Under the pieces are notes generated by a model. It ran no database searches. It saw nothing but the letters and a program-made list of their open reading frames with translations, and was not told where the DNA came from. The position numbers and the translations under genes are program-made. From Escherichia coli (GTDB taxonomy: Bacteria; Pseudomonadota; Gammaproteobacteria; Enterobacterales; Enterobacteriaceae), in NCBI RefSeq assembly GCF_003334305.1, contig NZ_QOWS01000012.1: a DNA stretch of 64,000 nucleotides. One strand, written 5' to 3'. Shown piece by piece: positions 35,921 through 44,165 of this stretch (the stretch's first letter is position 1; every line of letters begins with the position of its first letter).

Positions 35921-36790
35921 TTATTTTATTGGGCACAGTTTGTTACGATCTGGAAATAGTGTTGCCAGCGAACCAGCCAGAGTTTTCCAGTCCGTAGCCA
36001 TTTTTTCTGCTTGTGCAGTTGTTATTACTGCACCTTGTTGTTTAATAAGCTCATCCTCCACTCTGGTATAGTGAATAATGGTAAAATCCGTAGAGGACCA
36101 TTTATCCTTAGAGAACATCTTCGTCATCGCATGAATGTTTGCTTGCCCGTCATCGATAAAAACAATCGCGTCATATTTGTTCCCCATTTTATCCAGCATA
36201 TAATCGAGAATTACGCCTTTATCTTGCCCGGAAGAAAAAAATACCCCCTGGCTGTACAGCCATGACCGTTTGAGTTTCCCTTTTTCAAAGGGTGGCAAAG
36301 TATCCTCTTTCTTCCTGAGTGCGGAAGACGAAAAATCAATGCCGTTTCGCTTTAATTCCCGCAATGTCGGAAAGAGAGTATCCGGTGCACGGGATGTCAG
36401 AGCAAAAGCGGTATGCTTTTGTTGCCACTGTTTTAACATTGTCGGTAACTGTGGCTCGGTAAGCTGCATAGGGCTAAGTTCGTAAAGCATACTGATTGTA
36501 TTTTCATACAGGCAGGGAACTTTTTGCGAGTCATCCGGCTTTAAGGGCAATTTATCGGTTTACCATTGATACCAGATATCACCGCCAATGCGTGTGCCAC
36601 TCGTTAATAACGTATTATCAATGTCAAAAACCAATAATATCTTATCGGATGGATAGAGAGTTTCCTTTTCGGTGATAATTTTACTGACCGCACTATATTC
36701 GCCAGTAACTATATTTTTTACCTGTGCGTAAGATAAAGCTGGCAGAGCAGAGAGTATCATCCAGAGAATGATTTTAAATTTATTATTCAT
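35921..36790 (-). pseudogene. Secreted HAD-superfamily phosphatase-like gene interrupted by one in-frame TAA
   Basis: ORFs 36560-36790 (signal peptide, FDIDNTLL motif) and 35921-36550 (FIDDG motif) are in the same frame; TAA at 36562-36560. Confidence 0.55.
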
Positions 36791-36803
36791 TTTTTATTCC
36801 AGA

Positions 36804-37538
36804 TTAGAAAGTATAAGTCAGACCCCAGCGCCAGCGGATTTGGCGATTACTTGATGTTTTATCCACACCTTTATAATCCGCAATACTCATATAGGGTATC
36901 CACGATCCCATTTTGTACCCTACTTTAAATGATGCGGTATAGTTTTTATGGCCATCATTCCAGGTTAAATAACCATTATTGTAATAGACCAGGTTTAACT
37001 GATATTGGAAGTTGGTTTTTTGTGGTCGATAGTCGATCCACACATCGTAACGGCGGTTATTACGATCATCGTTGCCATAACCTTTGGATTTATCGGTAGC
37101 TTTATCCATGTCATAACGAAAACGACCCGAAACTTTCCATTCTTTGCTGAAATCATAACCCGCAGAAAGACCATATTCGTAAGTTGACCAATATTGCGTG
37201 GTATCAAGCCAGAACATGGGTTCTAACCAGAATTTTTTGTCATCCAGCGGCTTAAAGCGGTAAACAACAGATAATCCTGTTCCGTTATTGCCAAATTGTG
37301 AGGGGTCCCACTTATCTTTATCACCTTCATCGGTGTTATAGCGTAATTCTCCCATCAAACCGATACCATTACTAAAAAATGTACCAAATTCAACGCGGTC
37401 CGCGTGGGTGCGAGTATCATCAAGATACTCATGACGATAATCAATAAATCCATGCGGCTGTTCTGCACAGACTAGTGTAGGTGACAGGCAGGATAACATT
37501 GTTATTCCTGCAAGTGATATTTTAAGATAAGAATTCAT
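36804..37538 (-). CDS. Small outer-membrane beta-barrel porin, KdgM/NanC-like
   Basis: 244-aa ORF; signal peptide; alternating aromatic/polar strands; C-terminal TYTF with terminal Phe. Confidence 0.65.
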   Translation of the reverse strand: MNSYLKISLAGITMLSCLSPTLVCAEQPHGFIDYRHEYLDDTRTHADRVEFGTFFSNGIGLMGELRYNTDEGDKDKWDPSQFGNNGTGLSVVYRFKPLDDKKFWLEPMFWLDTTQYWSTYEYGLSAGYDFSKEWKVSGRFRYDMDKATDKSKGYGNDDRNNRRYDVWIDYRPQKTNFQYQLNLVYYNNGYLTWNDGHKNYTASFKVGYKMGSWIPYMSIADYKGVDKTSSNRQIRWRWGLTYTF

Positions 37539-37633
37539 AATATTCCCTTTCAGAATAAAATATATTTTTGGTGATCGAATACACCATCTGATGATTCCAG
37601 GTATTAGAATGTTTTTTTATCTATAGTTTGACT

Positions 37634-38758
37634 TTAAATTTTAAGTTTGTTTTCCTTATCAATGAATAGATAAAATTTCGTCTGTTGATGGGGCTGGAAA
37701 TTATTATCAGATACAAATATTAACGATGTATGCCCATCAATCAGAGGACCGAAGGTTACCCCTTCAATACAATCCGCAGAGGAAGTGTAATCAGCAAAAT
37801 CAATTAATAATTTTTTACTGACGGGTTGTAACGTGGATTTATTGGACCAATCTTGCAGACTGTCAATATCCTTGATATCGCTGGCAGCAGTTAAATCGAC
37901 CATATAAACTCTGACAGAGTAATCCCAGTCATTGAACCCAGCACTGACGTTTCTGCCGGAACGTTCGATGACCAACAATTGGTGATCATTCAGCGCCAGG
38001 ACCTCGGATACGCCATTATCATTAATACCGAACTTACTCACTTGCGGAACAGGATCAGTAATATAGAGATATTCATGCAATTGCTTTGAAGGTCGACCGT
38101 CTGCATCTATAGAAAATTGCAGTAAGCGTGATGTACCTGAATTTATTGGACTTGCAATAGGCCCATCCTGTTTAAGGCTGCTTTCAACGGCGATAAAAAG
38201 TGATTTTCCATCTGGTGTAACTGTCAGGCCCTCCCAGGCGTTGCCGCTGCGAATACCATTGCTGCTCTCTTTGTCAGAACTAATATTAAATCGAGCAGGA
38301 AATAAAGACGTAAAATCTTTCTCCATTACGCCATCGAGAGTGCTCAGACGCAGTGGAGCACCTAACTCCGAACTCCATAGTAATGACTTACCATTGTGTG
38401 TCAGGGCCAGACCTTCGGCATCCACCGTATTGGTCACGAAAGGCTGCTGTTTTGCATCAAGCAGTGGACGCTGGTTGAGAAAATTCACTTGCTCAATGCC
38501 CCTGGATGATACCTGTATTTTTAGTGTATAAAGACTGGCATCTCCTTCTTTATTATTGTTTCTGCTATCGTTAATAGCATAGAAAATATTTTTTTTTGCA
38601 TCAAATGTGATGGCTGATAGCCCCGCGATTGTAACATTGTTCTGTTTTTCTCCCGTCCGGAAGTTGAACTCACCAGCATAATGAAGAAAACTGTTTGCCT
38701 GCGCTGTTGTGCATAACAGCGGTAATGCCAGAAAAATAGCGGCATGTCTTATTTTCAT
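37634..38758 (-). CDS. Secreted protein, beta-propeller-like (phytase-like/esterase-like family guess), function unknown
   Basis: 374-aa ORF; signal peptide MKIRHAAIFLALPLLCTTAQA; repeated EGL..T.DGKSL blade-like motifs. Confidence 0.55.
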   Translation of the reverse strand: MKIRHAAIFLALPLLCTTAQANSFLHYAGEFNFRTGEKQNNVTIAGLSAITFDAKKNIFYAINDSRNNNKEGDASLYTLKIQVSSRGIEQVNFLNQRPLLDAKQQPFVTNTVDAEGLALTHNGKSLLWSSELGAPLRLSTLDGVMEKDFTSLFPARFNISSDKESSNGIRSGNAWEGLTVTPDGKSLFIAVESSLKQDGPIASPINSGTSRLLQFSIDADGRPSKQLHEYLYITDPVPQVSKFGINDNGVSEVLALNDHQLLVIERSGRNVSAGFNDWDYSVRVYMVDLTAASDIKDIDSLQDWSNKSTLQPVSKKLLIDFADYTSSADCIEGVTFGPLIDGHTSLIFVSDNNFQPHQQTKFYLFIDKENKLKI

Positions 38759-38787
38759 GATATTTACCTTTGTGTATGTATCTGATT

Positions 38788-39702
38788 TTAGTCGTGTTGT
38801 GAAAGAAAAAGATTAACTTCCGATGGTGTCGCCAGATGACCTCTGGCACCTAATGCAGTAATATTTATTGCTGCAGTGGCAGAAGCAAATTTTAGTGCTT
38901 CAATTAAGGGCATGTTTTTTATTAAGCTATAAACAAATGCACCATTAAAAGTATCTCCAGCGCCAGTGGTATCAATAATGGGAATTGTATAGCTACCTAT
39001 TTTTACTTGCTCATTGCCTTTGACTGCAATTACTCCCCTAACATCCAGCGTAACCACGACAGCCTCAAGTTGATACTCGTCTTGTATATCATGCAGAAGT
39101 GTAAAATCTGGCTCTGCTGCATAGCCACGAATAAAACCGTCATAATTAAATATCGCAATATCAGCAAGGTGTAAAATTCTGGCAAGGTGTTCAGGTGTTG
39201 CAATGATATGAGGCTCAATATCAACGACAACTTTTGTCATCTGGCTACGGGAATATTCGGCCAGCATACGAAATTTCTCGATATCTGCTGGCATCGTATA
39301 ATAATAACGGCTTTGCGCAATTGCCTGCAGGGCTTTTTCTTTATCCCACTCATGATCACTACCAGGCGAGTAAACCAACGTTTTTTCACCTAATTCATCA
39401 ATAAAGATAATCGCGGTATTGGCAATCAATTCCGGAATTACCTGAACGAAATCACAATTTACATGATATTTTTTAAATCCATCAAGAATGATCGAGGCTG
39501 AATGATCATTGCCCACACATGAAACAGATACCACATTGAGACCCAGTTGTCCCATCGCACAGGCACTGTTGGCGACTGTGCCGCCAGCTTGTTCACCCAG
39601 ACGTGTCCCGACCACTTTACCGCCACGAGTGGGGAGTGACGGGATAGATAAAAAAATATCTATATTTCCACTGCCTAAAGCGGCGACATCAAATTTCTTC
39701 AT
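38788..39702 (-). CDS. PfkB-family carbohydrate kinase (ribokinase-like)
   Basis: ORF track 322 aa; start placed at ATG 39702 (MKKFDVAALGSGNID) with AGGGAG SD; C-terminal DTTGAGDTF motif. Confidence 0.8.
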   Translation of the reverse strand: MKKFDVAALGSGNIDIFLSIPSLPTRGGKVVGTRLGEQAGGTVANSACAMGQLGLNVVSVSCVGNDHSASIILDGFKKYHVNCDFVQVIPELIANTAIIFIDELGEKTLVYSPGSDHEWDKEKALQAIAQSRYYYTMPADIEKFRMLAEYSRSQMTKVVVDIEPHIIATPEHLARILHLADIAIFNYDGFIRGYAAEPDFTLLHDIQDEYQLEAVVVTLDVRGVIAVKGNEQVKIGSYTIPIIDTTGAGDTFNGAFVYSLIKNMPLIEALKFASATAAINITALGARGHLATPSEVNLFLSQHD

Positions 39703-39706
39703 AGTC

Positions 39707-40705
39707 TTATTTCTCCCTATGGCTAACGCGTTGCCCGCCTGCGTCGACATAATCACAACTTAAATGCCAGCACATTTCATATAACCACTGCATGACCAGA
39801 AATAAATTGTTGGACTCACTGGCATCAGGTATAAAACTGATTAATTCTGCTGTCGCTCCCTGTTCAACAATTGCTTTTTGGGTTGCAATGTAAAATGGGT
39901 ACTCGCGGGATGTAGCTGGCAGTAAAAAATAATGCTGACCGACACCAGCCTGATGTAAGCGTAATGAATGATAAAATTCTTCCAGTGGAAAGGCTGTCGC
40001 ACGAATCTGTGGGCCGCAAGAAAGTAAATTGCTCCCCGATATTGCTAGTCCCCAACTTAAGCCACTCCCCAGAAACGTTATCTCTTTTTGTTGGTAAAAA
40101 TGGCGCTTCTTTTGCTGCCAGTGCTGATTAATCTGGCTAAATTTCCCTTCTAAATCCTCTTCAATTTGCAGTGGTGTTAAGCCTGGACATAAGTTTTGCG
40201 CTAAGCGCAGGAGGGTATAAAGTGTGACGCTACTACTTTGCGTTGGAATACCCTGCTTATTCGCCCATGTATAGAGCATGTTTTCTGTTATTGCGCAAAA
40301 TGGTGTTCCAGGGCAATTCGTCACACCCAGCACTTGCGCGTTTGAGCATACTGCGTGGCTAAGGGCGTCAACGGTCAGTGATGGTCTGCCACTTGCGCTG
40401 AGAATAATGATCAACGTTTCTTTCTGATAACGGGTTAAATCAGTCTGAAGAAAATCCCACGTTTGCAATGCGGAACAAAACAGATGTGTGTATTTCCCCA
40501 GCCAGGCGGCGGCACATAGTGCCACCGTCCAGGAGTCGCCCGATCCCACTATACAGACGCGTTCAACAGCACGTTTATCGAGCTGAACAGATGAAAAACA
40601 TTCACCCCAGATAGCTGCCAAATGGCGTAGCGCTGCCGCCGTTGCATTTATTTCCTCACGAGTTTGCGCTAATGGCATAACAGGAGCACGGGCTGGCATG
40701 TTCAT
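39707..40705 (-). CDS. Tandem SIS-domain phosphosugar isomerase/deglycase-like protein
   Basis: 332-aa ORF; two SIS-like segments (CIVGSGDSW, ITFLGSGLSWG); start overlaps upstream stop as TAATG. Confidence 0.7.
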   Translation of the reverse strand: MNMPARAPVMPLAQTREEINATAAALRHLAAIWGECFSSVQLDKRAVERVCIVGSGDSWTVALCAAAWLGKYTHLFCSALQTWDFLQTDLTRYQKETLIIILSASGRPSLTVDALSHAVCSNAQVLGVTNCPGTPFCAITENMLYTWANKQGIPTQSSSVTLYTLLRLAQNLCPGLTPLQIEEDLEGKFSQINQHWQQKKRHFYQQKEITFLGSGLSWGLAISGSNLLSCGPQIRATAFPLEEFYHSLRLHQAGVGQHYFLLPATSREYPFYIATQKAIVEQGATAELISFIPDASESNNLFLVMQWLYEMCWHLSCDYVDAGGQRVSHREK

Positions 40706-41781
40706 TATTTCTCCTGTGCCTGTACTGCAAGCAATGTCAGACCCGATGCGATCGCTTCAACATCGAAATCTTTATTATTTACGGCGCGGAAAAAGGCATA
40801 TTTATCTTCAGGGAGCGCATCAAAACCGCGCCATGCCCCTGCAATTGCGCCTGCCATCGTAGCGATGCTATCGGTGTCATTGCCAATATTGGCGCAGGCA
40901 TGGATGGTTTCCCAGGGTTCTCCTTTGCAGTACAGCAATAGACCGATTGCCGCAGGAATGGATTCATGGGCGGCAACAGAGTTACCAACCAAACCTTCCA
41001 TTTCTCGCAGACAAGACTCCAGATCATTGGCACGTCTGGCGATGTCCGCTGCAAGTTGGATGCGCATGGCGATAGATGGCCCTGCTACACATCGTGCATA
41101 TTGTTTGGCCAGGCGTTCGCCGTAATTCGCTCCCCAGATTGCGGCATCCAGTAATGATGTGAGCGAGGCTTCTGGTAACATAGCCTGCGATGTCGCTGCA
41201 GCGATGGCGCAAGCGCTGGCAATCGCAATATTGGTGTCATGTGAAGGTAGGCAAGTTATTAACGCCAGGCGACACGCTTTTTCTTTCTTGCCAGGCCAGA
41301 TCAATCCTGCCGGGGCTACACGCATTCCTGCGCCATTCGTGGTGCCGACATTGGGGGCCTGACGAGAAGATGTTCCAATACGCCCAATGGTGTTTGTTGG
41401 TCTACCTTCTTTTAGTGCCTTGACGATTTGTTCTGTTGTGGGGCCTTTATAATTTGCGTAGGGCTGCATATCGGCCCAACGCAGAAGACAAGCTAACCAG
41501 TCATTATTGGTGAAGTTATCAAATCCAGCCTCAATTAACCCTTCTGAAAACACATACATTTGGCTGGAATCGTCGGTGATAAGTCCTGCAACACCATTTA
41601 ATGAGCCAGCAAAGGTATCGGCAGGAGGAGAAACAAAGGCATTTAAAAAACCTCCCCATTGAGTTTTTATTTCATCAATGCTGTAGAGTTCAGTCGCTGC
41701 GCCTAATGCATCGCCCATACCTGCGCAGGCTAAAGAACCTAATATTTTGTTATAAATTACGGCTTGTTCTATTTTGTTCAC
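40705..41781 (-). CDS. ADP-ribosylglycohydrolase-family hydrolase
   Basis: 358-aa ORF (GTG start with GAGAG SD); GSLACAGMGDALGAATE near N-terminus and GNDTDSIA near C-terminus. Confidence 0.75.
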   Translation of the reverse strand: MNKIEQAVIYNKILGSLACAGMGDALGAATELYSIDEIKTQWGGFLNAFVSPPADTFAGSLNGVAGLITDDSSQMYVFSEGLIEAGFDNFTNNDWLACLLRWADMQPYANYKGPTTEQIVKALKEGRPTNTIGRIGTSSRQAPNVGTTNGAGMRVAPAGLIWPGKKEKACRLALITCLPSHDTNIAIASACAIAAATSQAMLPEASLTSLLDAAIWGANYGERLAKQYARCVAGPSIAMRIQLAADIARRANDLESCLREMEGLVGNSVAAHESIPAAIGLLLYCKGEPWETIHACANIGNDTDSIATMAGAIAGAWRGFDALPEDKYAFFRAVNNKDFDVEAIASGLTLLAVQAQEK

Positions 41782-41794
41782 AATATTCTCTCTG

Positions 41795-42547
41795 TTACAC
41801 GCTAAAACTGTCTTTTGTAATTCGTGCTTTGTAGGAGTACCGACTTGCGGGATAAACCATCTCTACATACTCCATTGGTTTACGTTCCACGGATAACGTG
41901 ACGCGGGTACAACTTAATACGACGTCATCGGCAGTCAGTTCCAGTAATTGACGCTCAAGGGGCGAGGGAAGCCGGGCAGAGATAATCTCCGTTGCTTCTA
42001 AAGGTTTAATAGCGAGTTTTTCTTCCAGTAAAATATAGAGCGAACCCGTCGCCAGCAGCTCTTCCAGAGTTATTTCTTGTCCGTCATTTAACGCAAGCCA
42101 TGATGTCTGAATACCCAGCGGCGTACTTCCCATATAGCGAATGCGTTTTATACAGAAAACGGTATGGACATGGATATCAAGTTCGAGATTTTTTCTGATA
42201 ATATCACTGAGAGGAATATAACCTATTTCAAGAATATTCTGTGCCGGTACGCCACCACGAGCCTTAATGTCATCAGTAAAACTATGTAATAAATGATTTT
42301 CCCGACTGCGAGCCGGTAATGTAAATGTTCCTTGCCCGTGGACACTATGCAGGTATCCGCGTTGTTTCAAACTTTCTATTGCTTTCCGAATTGTTGTTCT
42401 GCTGCTTAAAAAATGTTCAGCCAGTTCTCTTTCTGTTGGTATAGCTTTGCCTTCTTTCCATTCACCGTTATCAATTTTTTTCTTTATTTCATCAAAAATT
42501 TCACGATGCTTTAGCTGACCTTTACTGGCTTTATAAATTCTTATCAT
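41795..42547 (-). CDS. GntR/HutC-family transcriptional regulator with UTRA effector domain
   Basis: 250-aa ORF; winged-HTH ERELAEHFLSSRTTIRKAIESL at N-terminus; first gene of minus-strand array. Confidence 0.8.
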   Translation of the reverse strand: MIRIYKASKGQLKHREIFDEIKKKIDNGEWKEGKAIPTERELAEHFLSSRTTIRKAIESLKQRGYLHSVHGQGTFTLPARSRENHLLHSFTDDIKARGGVPAQNILEIGYIPLSDIIRKNLELDIHVHTVFCIKRIRYMGSTPLGIQTSWLALNDGQEITLEELLATGSLYILLEEKLAIKPLEATEIISARLPSPLERQLLELTADDVVLSCTRVTLSVERKPMEYVEMVYPASRYSYKARITKDSFSV

Positions 42548-42833
42548 GACAAAGCCTCATTTCAAGTGGTTGATACCAACTTTACATTCTTTTATTTTTA
42601 TTGCGCAGTATGCTTATTTGTTATCTGTGACATAAAACAGGAAAAACCACATTTATTAATAAATATCATGCGGTTAAGTGAAATTGGTTTTTATGTGATG
42701 CTGCTCAATATTAACTCAGTGGTTTGTTGTGGTATCTACCAATGCATTTATTCTCAATCGTAAAGTTATGTGCTGAATGAGTTCCGATACATTTGTTTTT
42801 AATATAATTTCATGTGATTAATGAGTGCTGTGT

Positions 42834-44165
42834 ATGAAACTGACAATAAATGAAAAGATAGGTTTTGGTGCCGGTGATATGGCCATTGCGATAGTAATGA
42901 TGTCTTTAGCCATGATCATCACTTATTTTTACACGGATGTATTTGGTCTGAAACCCGTCGACTTAGGTATTCTGTTATTTTCTGTACGTATTCTTGATGC
43001 TGTGATTGATCCAGTTGTGGGAACAATGACAGACATAACGAATACACGTTGGGGAAAATATCGGCCATGGTTGCTTTTTATGTCAATACCGTTTGGGATA
43101 AGCATTTGGTTGATGTTCACCACACCTGATACCGATTATTCAGTTAAGCTTTTATGGGCCTGGGCTACCTATGTGTTACTTACCTTGACCTATACGTTAA
43201 TCGCTATTCCTTATGTTTCATTAATCAGCGTTATCACGGATGATCCACAAGAGAGATTGAGCGCCAATGGTTATCGTTTTGTTATGACAAAAATTGCCAT
43301 GTTCGCCGTAACAATTATTGTTCCTTTATCTGCAATGTATCTTGGGAAGAATAACGTACAACTGGGTTATCAAATAGCAATGGGGACAATGGGTATTCTG
43401 GCAACGTGTTTATGCCTGTATTGTTTTTTTAGCGTGAGAGAGCGCATCTACCATCCAAAACCCAGTCTCGGTATGGCCGCGCAGTTTCGGTTACTGATCA
43501 AAAATGATCAATGGCTCATTTTGGGCGCTGTAATTGCGATCATTATGTTTGGCGGGATTATTCGTAACTCTGTCGCTGCATATTATGCAAAATATTACCT
43601 GAGTGGTGGGGATGCTTTAATTTCACCGTTTTTAACTTCAGGCGTGATCGCCTCAGTTCTGGCTATGATCGCTTGCACCTGGCTTACTCGTCTCTATGAC
43701 AAAATAAAAATATTTCGTTATACCCAATTACTGGCGTTCGTGGTGGGTGGTGCGATGTATTTCGTGCAACCAAATTCTATAGTGCTAGCTTTTACATTTT
43801 ATATTGTGGTGACTTTCCTGACGGATATCCAGCTTCCCATTTATTGGGCATCCATTGCTGAGTCCGTGGATTACGGTGAAATGAAAACGGGGCAACGTGT
43901 TTCTGGCCTGGCATTTGGCGGGATTCTCTTTTTCCAAAAGTTCGGTATGGGGCTGGCAGGGGGCTTTATCGGAATCGCTTTAGCCTATCTGGATTATCAA
44001 CCAGGCGTAGAACAAACACCACAGGCGCTGTGGGGGATCTGCCTGTTAATGACGATCATTCCCGCGATACTTAACCTGCTTACCGGACTCATCATGAGAT
44101 TTTATCTGATTAATAATGAATATTACGAACAGATAAAAGCACGGTTACAAACGGCGGAAGAGTGA
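42834..44165 (+). CDS. GPH-family (MelB-like) glycoside:cation symporter
   Basis: ORF from GTG 42825; ATG at 42834; 12-TM profile; D..G...D..TNTRWGKYRPW signature. Confidence 0.8.
   Translation: MKLTINEKIGFGAGDMAIAIVMMSLAMIITYFYTDVFGLKPVDLGILLFSVRILDAVIDPVVGTMTDITNTRWGKYRPWLLFMSIPFGISIWLMFTTPDTDYSVKLLWAWATYVLLTLTYTLIAIPYVSLISVITDDPQERLSANGYRFVMTKIAMFAVTIIVPLSAMYLGKNNVQLGYQIAMGTMGILATCLCLYCFFSVRERIYHPKPSLGMAAQFRLLIKNDQWLILGAVIAIIMFGGIIRNSVAAYYAKYYLSGGDALISPFLTSGVIASVLAMIACTWLTRLYDKIKIFRYTQLLAFVVGGAMYFVQPNSIVLAFTFYIVVTFLTDIQLPIYWASIAESVDYGEMKTGQRVSGLAFGGILFFQKFGMGLAGGFIGIALAYLDYQPGVEQTPQALWGICLLMTIIPAILNLLTGLIMRFYLINNEYYEQIKARLQTAEE

What the first reader, a model, noticed from the sequence alone, without database searches (positions are those of the whole stretch)
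42548..42833. Divergent control region of the accessory locus with a 14-bp AT palindrome
The 280-bp gap between the GntR-led operon (-) and the GPH symporter (+) is AT-rich and contains the perfect palindrome atttattaataaat (42651-42664), about 100 bp upstream of the regulator start. GntR/HutC repressors bind short palindromes, so this is a candidate operator for auto- and transporter regulation.
Basis: inference. Interest (0 to 1): 0.3.

Follow-up and report, generated by a model that had tools for sequence, protein, structure and literature searches.

The report
Incidental AT palindrome; real operators are nearby
The 14-bp AT palindrome is really there but is a strain-specific accident in an AT-rich spacer; this ordinary sugar-operon switch is more likely run by two conserved GTGGT-N4-ACCAA boxes and two CRP sites beside it.

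Summary
The window is E. coli chromosome. The 286-bp gap (42548-42833) separates a GntR/HutC-led operon (-) from a GPH symporter (+) in an accessory island found in 408 of 5426 complete genomes.

It is not a credible operator:
- A perfect palindrome of at least 14 bp arises in 3-4% of shuffles of this 69% AT gap.
- It is absent from the two other E. coli alleles of the island and from all 11 orthologous regions examined.
- It has no G/C, yet the regulator keeps both arginines that read a GG step in NagR/DasR-type operators.

What is conserved:
- Two GTGGT-N4-ACCAA boxes: O1 (42566-42579), 19 bp before the GntR ATG, and O2 (42729-42742).
- Two CRP-like sites at fixed offsets: CRP-2 is 61-63 bp from O1, and CRP-1 is 33-34 bp from O2.
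- A 52-54 bp AT-rich spacer with an IHF-like core in the nine closer regions (67-68 bp in two distant ones). The palindrome lies inside this spacer.

TGGT-N4-ACCA occurs in 11 of 11 orthologous upstream regions, against a maximum of 5 in shuffles.

Verdict: a routine divergent, CRP-activated, HutC-repressed control region. No protein binding or transcript start was measured here.

The parts
42548..42833 (.). Divergent intergenic control region, 286 bp and 69% A+T, between the GntR-led operon (-) and the GPH symporter (+).
42651..42664 (.). It is allele-specific and lies in the AT-rich spacer between the two CRP-like sites.
   Evidence: Present. Absent in L007, L019, L008, L020, L021 and all orthologues. 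Conservation rank 116 of 279. Shuffle probability 0.03-0.04.
42566..42579 (.). O1, GTGGTTGATACCAA (core TGGT-N4-ACCA at 42567-42578). Inferred HutC-type operator, 19 bp upstream of the GntR ATG and centred on the inferred start of the GntR-operon promoter.
   Evidence: The flanking bases GTGGT and ACCAA are invariant in 8 aligned sequences, and the inner four differ only in L010. Conservation rank 1 of 279. An equivalent box lies 13-23 bp before the GntR start in every enterobacterial orthologue.
42729..42742 (.). O2, GTGGTATCTACCAA (core 42730-42741). Inferred second operator, overlapping the -35 and spacer of the inferred symporter promoter.
   Evidence: TTGTGGT and ACCA are invariant. Rank 10 of 279. 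O1 to O2 spacing is 163-167 bp in 9 regions and 177-179 bp in two distant ones. These are the only two intergenic exact matches to the core in the 64-kb window.
42694..42709 (.). CRP-1, TGTGAtgctgcTCAAT (8 of 10 consensus bases), centre 42701.5. Inferred class I activator site for the symporter promoter, at about -60.
   Evidence: GTGA and TCAA are invariant in 8 sequences. The centre is 33-34 bp from the O2 centre in 11 of 11 orthologous regions.
42626..42641 (.). CRP-2, TGTGAcataaaACAGG (7 of 10), centre 42633.5. Inferred class I site at -61.5 for the GntR-operon promoter.
   Evidence: A match of at least 7 of 10 lies 61-63 bp from the O1 centre in 11 of 11 regions, reaching 9 of 10 in L010, L013 and L016.
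42664..42676 (+). IHF-like core TATCATGCGGTTA (WATCAANNNNTTR with 1 mismatch). The palindrome forms the A/T-rich arm on its 5' side. Low confidence.
   Evidence: The same position and strand carry a match with at most 1 mismatch in 7 of the 8 closer regions and in L013. The CA and TTA columns are invariant. Chance at a fixed position is 0.8%, and anywhere in the spacer 20%.
42642..42649 (.). AAAAACCA, the inner flank of CRP-2. It forms an inverted repeat with 42685-42692. Role unknown.
   Evidence: repeat I15. AAAACC is invariant.
42685..42692 (.). TGGTTTTT, the inner flank of CRP-1 and partner of 42642-42649. It falls in the third most conserved 14-nt window.
42579..42584 (-). Inferred -10 hexamer TAAAGT of the GntR-operon promoter, with an inferred start near 42572.
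   Evidence: My reading of the sequences printed: a TAnnnT-like hexamer lies 0-4 nt upstream of O1 in most orthologues. Not mapped experimentally.
42727..42754 (+). Inferred symporter promoter: -35 TTGTGG (42727-42732), 16-nt spacer, -10 TATTCT (42749-42754), start near 42761.
   Evidence: My reading: a TATnnT-type hexamer lies 7-9 nt after O2 in most orthologues. The consensus promoter scan did not report it.
41795..42547 (-). GntR/HutC-subfamily regulator, 250 aa, with Arg40, Arg50 and Gly71 matching the NagR base contacts.
42834..44165 (+). GPH-family (MFS_2) cation symporter.
35921..41781 (-). The rest of the likely operon: ADP-ribosylglycohydrolase-family protein, SIS protein, PfkB kinase, phytase-like esterase, KdgM porin and DUF2608 protein.
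   Evidence: The same gene order occurs in L009.

Best explanation
The gap is a back-to-back pair of CRP-dependent promoters, each gated by one operator of the locus's own HutC-type repressor.

The dimeric GntR protein binds O1 (GTGGTTGATACCAA, 42566-42579) and O2 (GTGGTATCTACCAA, 42729-42742) in the way NagR and DasR bind their sites, with Arg40 and Arg50 reading the GG step of each TGGT half-site.
- O1 sits on the inferred start of the GntR-ARH-SIS-PfkB operon. Its -10 is TAAAGT, CRP-2 is at -61.5, and binding there gives autorepression.
- O2 covers the -35 and spacer of the symporter promoter, with CRP-1 at about -60.

An intermediate of the pathway, probably a phosphorylated product of the PfkB kinase, would bind the UTRA domain and release the repressor. 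cAMP-CRP would then activate both promoters.

The AT palindrome lies in the 52-bp A+T-rich spacer between the two CRP sites. In the nine closer regions that spacer is conserved in length (52-54 bp), and in all twelve it is 72-90% A+T, but its sequence is not conserved. It may carry an IHF-type bend site. The perfect palindrome itself is an accident of one E. coli allele.

Shown directly: the sequence features, their conservation, their geometry and the conserved residues. Inferred: protein binding, transcription starts, the roles of CRP and IHF, and the effector.
For: - Only 4 exact TGGT-N4-ACCA matches occur in 64 kb, with 0.8 expected and no shuffle of 100 reaching 4. Two are in this gap and the other two lie inside long ORFs.
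- In 12 orthologous loci whose GntR is 47-85% identical (Enterobacter, Providencia, Leclercia, Kosakonia, Trabulsiella, Vibrio and metagenomes), there are 26 exact matches in 15.3 kb of intergenic DNA and 4 in 111 kb of coding DNA. All 26 lie in intergenic regions next to locus genes (GntR, MFS, KdgM, ARH, Tsx).
- An unbiased count of all 4+4 inverted repeats with gaps of 0-8 ranks TGGT-N4-ACCA first, in 11 of 11 upstream regions. The best pattern in 200 shuffles reached 5.
- O1, O2 and TGGTTTTTaTGTGA are the most conserved 14-mers, at ranks 1, 10 and 3 of 279.
- The closest solved relatives are DasR and NagR. NagR reads GTGG half-sites of GTGGTCTAGACCAC through Arg38, Arg48 and Gly69 (PMC4333415). 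These align with Arg40, Arg50 and Gly71 here. Both arginines are invariant in 12 orthologues. PMC4918961 ties the presence of both arginines to a GG step in the operator.
- Most HutC-subfamily sites have GT and AC separated by 4 nt (PMC4494728).
- CRP-like sites keep fixed distances from the operators in 11 of 11 regions, including the distant L013-L017 regions that I did not align with the window.
Against: - No binding, transcript-start or expression data exist for this locus. Everything about occupancy is inferred.
- The CRP-like sites are individually weak (8 of 10 and 7 of 10). Matches of this quality are not enriched in the window, 23 found against 25 expected.
- The consensus sigma-70 scan did not report my proposed promoters and found no excess of promoter-like sites.
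- The closer orthologues are alignable, so part of the conservation is shared ancestry rather than independent evidence.
- Another HutC paralogue of E. coli could in principle use the same boxes.
Confidence: 0.8

Rival explanations
1. One reading: the AT palindrome 42651-42664 is the operator of the GntR/HutC repressor for both divergent units.
For: It is a perfect 14-bp palindrome in the right intergenic region. GntR-family proteins bind palindromes, and their sites are often A/T-rich around the GT/AC core.
Against: - It is lost in about half of the E. coli genomes that carry the island and in all orthologues.
- It has no GT-N4-AC core and no guanine for Arg40 and Arg50.
- Patterns derived from the palindrome occur in only 1-2 of 11 orthologous regions.
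- It lies upstream of both CRP-like sites.
Confidence: 0.03
2. The palindrome tract is the A/T-rich arm of an IHF site, or another nucleoid-protein site such as H-NS or Fis. The protein would bend the spacer between the two CRP-bound promoters. The function would need A/T richness and the WATCAA-N4-TTR core, not the palindrome.
For: - TATCATGCGGTTA (42664-42676) matches WATCAANNNNTTR with 1 mismatch.
- The same position and strand match in 7 of the 8 closer regions, perfectly in L010, and in L013.
- The CA and TTA columns are invariant within a variable tract.
- The spacer is 52-54 bp in 10 regions and 72-90% A+T in all 12.
- Chance of a match at a fixed position is 0.8%.
Against: - The motif is weak. 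20% of shuffled spacers carry one somewhere.
- It is absent at that position in L012, L014, L016 and L017.
- The closer orthologues are not independent of one another.
- No IHF weight matrix or binding data were available.
Confidence: 0.3
3. The palindrome has no function of its own. It arose by chance from a few substitutions in one allele of an AT-rich spacer. This is compatible with the best explanation.
For: - Other alleles differ by 2 or more substitutions within it.
- The longest palindromes in orthologous spacers are 4-10 bp, which matches the shuffle expectation with a mode of 6.
- Shuffle probability is 1-4%.
Against: A 14-bp perfect palindrome is still in the upper tail of the shuffle distribution. 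Short AT palindromes lie at a similar offset in several orthologues.
Confidence: 0.6
4. The TGGT-N4-ACCA boxes are bound by a different HutC-family regulator of the host, not by the adjacent GntR.
For: The core resembles sites of several HutC-family proteins such as the NagR and DasR dre sites. E. coli has several paralogues, for example GgaR/YegW.
Against: - The boxes travel with this GntR gene across Enterobacterales and Vibrio. They lie in intergenic regions next to locus genes even where the gene order is rearranged (L015, L018, L003).
- GgaR was reported by ChIP-chip to have a single target, yegTUV, although that was in K-12, which I believe lacks the island.
Confidence: 0.07

Closest known systems
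NagR (YvoA) of Bacillus subtilis and DasR of Streptomyces, with their dre operators
   Same: - Same subfamily, with a GntR winged helix plus a UTRA domain, and the closest solved relatives.
- The operator core matches the crystallised GTGGTCTAGACCAC: GTGGT-N4-ACCA(A/C).
- Arg38, Arg48 and Gly69 are conserved here as Arg40, Arg50 and Gly71.
- As in natural dre sites, the two half-sites are not identical.
   Different: - The protein is a different orthologous group. All NCBIfam matches are far below cut-off.
- The central 4 nt differ: TGAT and ATCT rather than CTAG.
- The regulon is an uncharacterised ARH/SIS/PfkB island, not GlcNAc catabolism.
- The effector is unknown.
GgaR (YegW) and the yegTUV operon of E. 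coli K-12 (PMC10819704)
   Same: A HutC-type local repressor next to an operon that encodes an ADP-ribosylglycohydrolase-family protein, a PfkB kinase and a transporter, with two nearby binding sites.
   Different: - It is a different locus and protein.
- GgaR's sites were mapped by ChIP and EMSA.
- There the regulator is convergent and downstream, whereas here it leads the operon.
- This island adds SIS, phytase-like, KdgM and DUF2608 genes.
Divergons with two separate sites, as described for FadR and HutC regulons (PMC4494728)
   Same: Two sites in a divergent region, each close to its own operon, one of which contains the regulator gene.
   Different: That paper gives a general statistical pattern and does not describe this regulon. 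I did not search its supplementary tables for this orthologous group.
frl (FrlR) and fra (FraR) Amadori-compound operons of E. coli and Salmonella (from my own knowledge, not checked here)
   Same: A HutC repressor with a PfkB kinase, a SIS-domain deglycase or isomerase and a transporter. In those systems the effector is thought to be the substrate or its phosphorylated form.
   Different: This island adds an ARH-family hydrolase. In other taxa the locus is joined by nucleoside-related genes (Tsx, adenosine deaminase, 5'-nucleotidase), which points to a different substrate class.

Membership tests
HutC-subfamily GntR operator, tested on the AT palindrome 42651-42664 | An inverted repeat with conserved GT and AC separated by 4 nt (NyGTMTAKACNy; PMC4494728) | tested here: not met
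   The palindrome contains only A and T. The consensus is quoted.
HutC-subfamily GntR operator, tested on the AT palindrome 42651-42664 | Conserved in orthologous control regions that carry the same regulator | tested here: not met
   Absent from the two other E. coli allele classes and from all orthologues. Conservation rank 116 of 279.
HutC-subfamily GntR operator, tested on O1 and O2 | GT-N4-AC inverted-repeat core | tested here: met
   O1 is TGGTTGATACCA and O2 is TGGTATCTACCA. They match the NagR crystal DNA GTGGTCTAGACCAC outside the central 4 nt.
HutC-subfamily GntR operator, tested on O1 and O2 | A GG step in the half-sites, matched by Arg38- and Arg48-equivalent residues in the regulator | tested here: met
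   Arg40 and Arg50 align with NagR Arg38 and Arg48 and are invariant in 12 orthologues. The rule is stated in PMC4918961.
HutC-subfamily GntR operator, tested on O1 and O2 | Co-occurs with the regulator gene across genomes, in the promoters of the regulon | tested here: met
   26 intergenic against 4 coding exact matches in 12 loci. Found in 11 of 11 regions against a shuffle maximum of 5.
HutC-subfamily GntR operator, tested on O1 and O2 | Direct, effector-sensitive binding by the purified regulator | not testable with these tools
   Requires EMSA, footprinting or ChIP.
GntR family, HutC subfamily (the regulator protein) | An N-terminal GntR winged helix (PF00392) and a C-terminal UTRA domain (PF07702) | tested here: met
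   Precomputed Pfam domains. Full-length alignments to HutC, PhnF and TreR models, below their equivalog cut-offs. DasR and NagR are the top PDB hits.
CRP (cAMP receptor protein) class I activator site | Match to TGTGA-N6-TCACA | tested here: inconclusive
   8 of 10 (42694-42709) and 7 of 10 (42626-42641). Sites of this quality are not enriched in the window.
CRP (cAMP receptor protein) class I activator site | Conserved position relative to the core promoter, near -61.5 | tested here: inconclusive
   The offsets from the operators are fixed in 11 of 11 regions, 33-34 bp and 61-63 bp. The -61.5 assignment depends on inferred, unmapped transcript starts.
IHF binding site | A WATCAANNNNTTR core with an A/T-rich tract on its 5' side | tested here: inconclusive
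   1 mismatch in the window. Positionally conserved in most of the closer orthologues, but 20% of shuffled spacers also contain one.
GPH (glycoside-pentoside-hexuronide) cation symporter (the gene at 42834-44165) | Score above the TIGR00792 cut-off | tested here: met
   346.2 bits against a cut-off of 231.35.

The most novel reading that the evidence does not exclude
The control region may be the switch of an undescribed catabolic pathway for a glycosylated or ribosylated adenosine-type nucleoside. Candidates are ribosyl-adenosine released from poly(ADP-ribose), or an ADP-sugar. The HutC repressor would sense a phosphorylated intermediate. The length-conserved AT spacer with its IHF-like core would fold two CRP-bound divergent promoters into one nucleoprotein complex. 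The palindrome itself would still be incidental.
Probability: 0.15. Interest if true: 0.5.

Novelty: new member of a known kind. Interest (0 to 1): 0.2.

Why it matters
The analysis replaces a wrong operator guess with a testable regulatory map for an uncharacterised accessory island carried by about 7.5% of complete E. coli genomes and by several other Enterobacterales and Vibrio. The map consists of two operators, two CRP-like sites and a spacer.

The predicted operator motif can be used in two ways. It can delimit the regulon in other genomes, where Tsx, KdgM, the MFS transporter and the ARH operon all carry it. It can also support reporter constructs for finding the unknown inducer and substrate.

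As a regulatory mechanism it is textbook. A specialist would not be surprised.

Tried and rejected
- **Sigma-70 and terminator scan of 42400-42950.** It found 2 promoter-like hits against 3.1 expected. One runs into the GntR coding sequence. This was not informative.
- **CRP consensus scan of the whole window.** It showed no enrichment, so the CRP assignment rests on conserved geometry alone.
- **The 65-aa ORF at 42566-42763.** It has a stop codon in the MDR56 allele and is broken in L009. I treat it as spurious.
- **LexA-box-like CTGT-N8-ACAG at 42625-42640.** It occurs only in the E. coli alleles and is not kept in L009 or L010. I rejected it in favour of CRP-2.
- **DNA looping between O1 and O2.** The spacing is 163-167 bp in most lineages but 177-179 bp in L016 and L017. 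There is therefore no strict helical phasing, and I do not claim looping.
- **AAAAACCA / TGGTTTTT as extra GntR half-sites.** They are too far from O1 and O2, compared with the 7-12 nt reported for accessory boxes. This remains unexplained.
- **Genome-contig scan with the single protein.** It gave only 2 useful loci. The orthologues came instead from the protein search plus contig look-ups.
- **Literature searches for the island's gene set.** No paper describing it was found.
- **Search for the M. smegmatis PhnF operator paper.** It is not in the library, so I do not cite that comparison.

Full report
**Where we are.** The window matches E. coli chromosomes at 100% identity. The finding lies in an accessory island of about 8.3 kb inserted between parE and ygiN. 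The island is present in 408 of 5426 complete genomes and is always chromosomal.

On the minus strand the genes run in this order:
- GntR-family regulator (41795-42547)
- ADP-ribosylglycohydrolase-family (ARH) protein
- SIS protein
- PfkB kinase
- phytase-like esterase
- KdgM porin
- DUF2608 protein

On the plus strand a GPH/MFS_2 symporter starts at 42834. The gaps within the minus-strand set are 0-29 bp, except for 95 bp before the KdgM gene. A regulator-led operon is therefore plausible.

**The observation.** ATTTATTAATAAAT occupies 42651-42664 and is a perfect palindrome. The gap is 286 bp and 69% A+T. The palindrome lies 104-117 bp upstream of the GntR ATG.

Its statistical weight is small:
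- 3.4-4.3% of shuffles of the gap contain a perfect palindrome of at least 14 bp.
- The window holds seven such palindromes.
- Within the 52-bp AT spacer alone the figure is about 1.3%.

**Conservation test.** E. coli carries three allele classes of this region, at 99% or more, about 96.5% and about 91.6% identity to the window. They comprise 208, 77 and 123 genomes. Two representatives of the second class and three of the third were read. All lack the palindrome, showing ATTTATTATTAAAA and AATTAAATATATAA instead. All keep every other element described below.

I collected 12 orthologous loci whose regulator is 47-85% identical to the window's. In the 8-sequence alignment, the palindrome's 14-nt window ranks 116 of 279 for conservation. 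The boxes described next rank 1 and 10. Orthologous spacers contain only 4-10 bp palindromes of unrelated sequence, as shuffles predict.

**What is conserved instead.** Two copies of GTGGT-N4-ACCAA stand out: O1 at 42566-42579 and O2 at 42729-42742.
- The core TGGT-N4-ACCA occurs four times in 64 kb, with 0.8 expected and no shuffle of 100 reaching four. The two copies outside this gap lie inside long ORFs.
- Across the 12 orthologous loci there are 26 exact matches in 15.3 kb of intergenic DNA and 4 in 111 kb of coding DNA.
- Every enterobacterial regulator gene has one box 13-23 bp before its start codon. In the two Vibrio loci the distance is 55-72 bp.
- A second box lies 163-179 bp further upstream, next to the divergent MFS or KdgM gene.
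- Where the gene order is rearranged, the boxes follow the genes. Leclercia (L015) has two in the ARH/MFS divergent region and one before the regulator. Vibrio artabrorum (L018) has two before tsx. Vibrio europaeus (L003) has boxes before both porin genes and the regulator.
- An unbiased count of all 4+4 inverted repeats with gaps of 0-8 puts TGGT-N4-ACCA first, in 11 of 11 upstream regions. The best pattern in any of 200 shuffles reached 5. Patterns derived from the palindrome reach 1-2 of 11.

**Why these boxes fit this protein.** The regulator has the GntR winged helix plus a UTRA domain, and its closest solved relatives are DasR and NagR.

In the NagR-DNA crystal the DNA is GTGGTCTAGACCAC. 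G-5 and G-4 of each half-site are read by Arg38 and Arg48, and G-7 by the wing at Gly69 (PMC4333415). The HMMER alignment places Arg40, Arg50 and Gly71 of the window protein at those positions. Both arginines are invariant in 12 orthologues. Gly71 is present in 10 of them.

PMC4918961 notes that HutC proteins retaining both arginines are expected to need both guanines. PMC4494728 gives 4 nt between GT and AC as the rule for most HutC-subfamily sites. An all-A/T palindrome offers none of these contacts.

**Promoter architecture (inferred).** Two CRP-like sites flank the AT spacer: CRP-1 (TGTGAtgctgcTCAAT, 42694-42709) and CRP-2 (TGTGAcataaaACAGG, 42626-42641). Each is weak on its own, and such matches are not enriched in the window. 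Their geometry, however, is fixed.
- In 11 of 11 orthologous regions, a match of at least 7 of 10 lies 33-34 bp from the O2 centre.
- Another lies 61-63 bp from the O1 centre.
- This holds even in the more distant L013-L017 regions, which I did not align with the window and where the O1 to O2 distance changes.

A TAnnnT hexamer abuts O1 (TAAAGT, 42579-42584, minus strand). If it is the -10, the transcript start falls at about 42572. That is the centre of O1, and it puts CRP-2 at -61.5, the classic class I position.

For the symporter promoter, TTGTGG (42727-42732), a 16-nt spacer and TATTCT (42749-42754) give a start near 42761. O2 then lies in the -35 and spacer, and CRP-1 lies near -60. TATnnT-type hexamers lie 7-9 nt after O2 in most orthologues (my reading).

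These starts have not been mapped, and the consensus scan did not report these promoters.

**Where that leaves the palindrome.** It sits in the spacer between the two CRP-like sites, roughly -80 to -110 from either inferred start.
- The spacer is 52-54 bp in the nine closer regions plus L013 and L014, and 67-68 bp in L016 and L017.
- It is 72-90% A+T in all of them, but its sequence varies.
- Immediately 3' of the palindrome, TATCATGCGGTTA (42664-42676) matches the IHF core WATCAANNNNTTR with one mismatch.
- The same position and strand match in 7 of the 8 closer regions, perfectly in L010, and in L013.
- The CA and TTA columns are invariant.
- Chance at a fixed position is 0.8%, though 20% of shuffled spacers have such a match somewhere.

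I rate an IHF-type bend site as possible, at about 0.3. In that reading the A/T richness would matter, not the palindrome. The conserved inverted repeat AAAAACCA (42642-42649) / TGGTTTTT (42685-42692), on the inner flanks of the CRP sites, remains unexplained.

**Comparison with known systems.**
- The operators are dre-like, as for NagR and DasR.
- The two-site divergent layout, with one site near each operon, is a pattern described for HutC regulons.
- The nearest E. coli functional analogue is GgaR/YegW. It is a single-target HutC repressor with two sites at yegTUV, an operon that also encodes an ARH-family protein, a PfkB kinase and a transporter (PMC10819704).
- The regulator here is not an orthologue of any curated NCBIfam model. 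All hits are far below cut-off.
- No paper on this island turned up.

**Verdict.** The region is a control region as proposed, but the operator assignment should move to O1 and O2. The architecture is a conventional CRP-activated, HutC-repressed divergent pair. This is a new member of a known kind, of low interest as a regulatory mechanism. The uncharacterised, probably nucleoside-related substrate of the island is the more interesting open question.

Noticed in passing
window 35921-44165; loci L009-L018, L002, L003: The island (ARH, SIS, PfkB, phytase-like esterase, KdgM, DUF2608, GPH symporter) is joined in other taxa by a Tsx nucleoside channel, adenosine deaminase, a UshA-like 5'-nucleotidase or a Bmp-type nucleoside ABC transporter. 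The ARH protein's nearest solved relatives are MJ1187 and the poly(ADP-ribose) glycohydrolase ARH3. This suggests catabolism of a glycosylated or ribosylated adenosine-type compound. No paper on it was found.
   Followed up: partly
window 42642-42649 and 42685-42692: The inverted repeat AAAAACCA / TGGTTTTT, with 35 nt between its arms, brackets the AT spacer on the inner flanks of the two CRP-like sites. It is nearly invariant in eight sequences. TGGTTTTTaTGTGA is the third most conserved 14-mer. Its function is unknown.
   Followed up: partly
window 42625-42640: CTGTGACATAAAACAG fits the LexA-box skeleton CTGT-N8-ACAG and overlaps CRP-2. It is kept only in the E. coli alleles, not in L009 or L010, so it is probably fortuitous.
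   Followed up: partly
window 42761-42782 and 42805-42826: A 22-nt direct repeat, 77% identical and spaced 44 bp apart, lies in the inferred 5' untranslated region of the symporter. The second copy abuts the start codon.
   Followed up: no
window 42566-42763 (+): A 65-aa GTG-initiated ORF spans most of the intergenic region. It has a stop codon in the MDR56 allele and is broken in L009, so it is spurious.
   Followed up: yes
L023 (E. coli Z142-3, NZ_CP159694.1) and L019 (DSM 103263): The island decays in some strains. Z142-3 has three IS1 copies replacing most of the operon and a frameshifted transporter. DSM 103263 has an internal stop in the transporter.
   Followed up: no
L016 and L017 (Kosakonia, Trabulsiella) compared with the window: In these two orthologues the wing residue equivalent to NagR Gly69 is Lys instead of Gly. 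Their operators have C or T in place of the outer G (CTGGT / TTGGT instead of GTGGT). This may be protein-DNA co-variation at the G-7 contact.
   Followed up: no
L018 2005-3876 (Vibrio artabrorum): Two divergent HutC-type GntR genes lie side by side, with TGGT-N4-ACCA-like boxes between them and before tsx. This suggests duplication of the regulator in that lineage.
   Followed up: no
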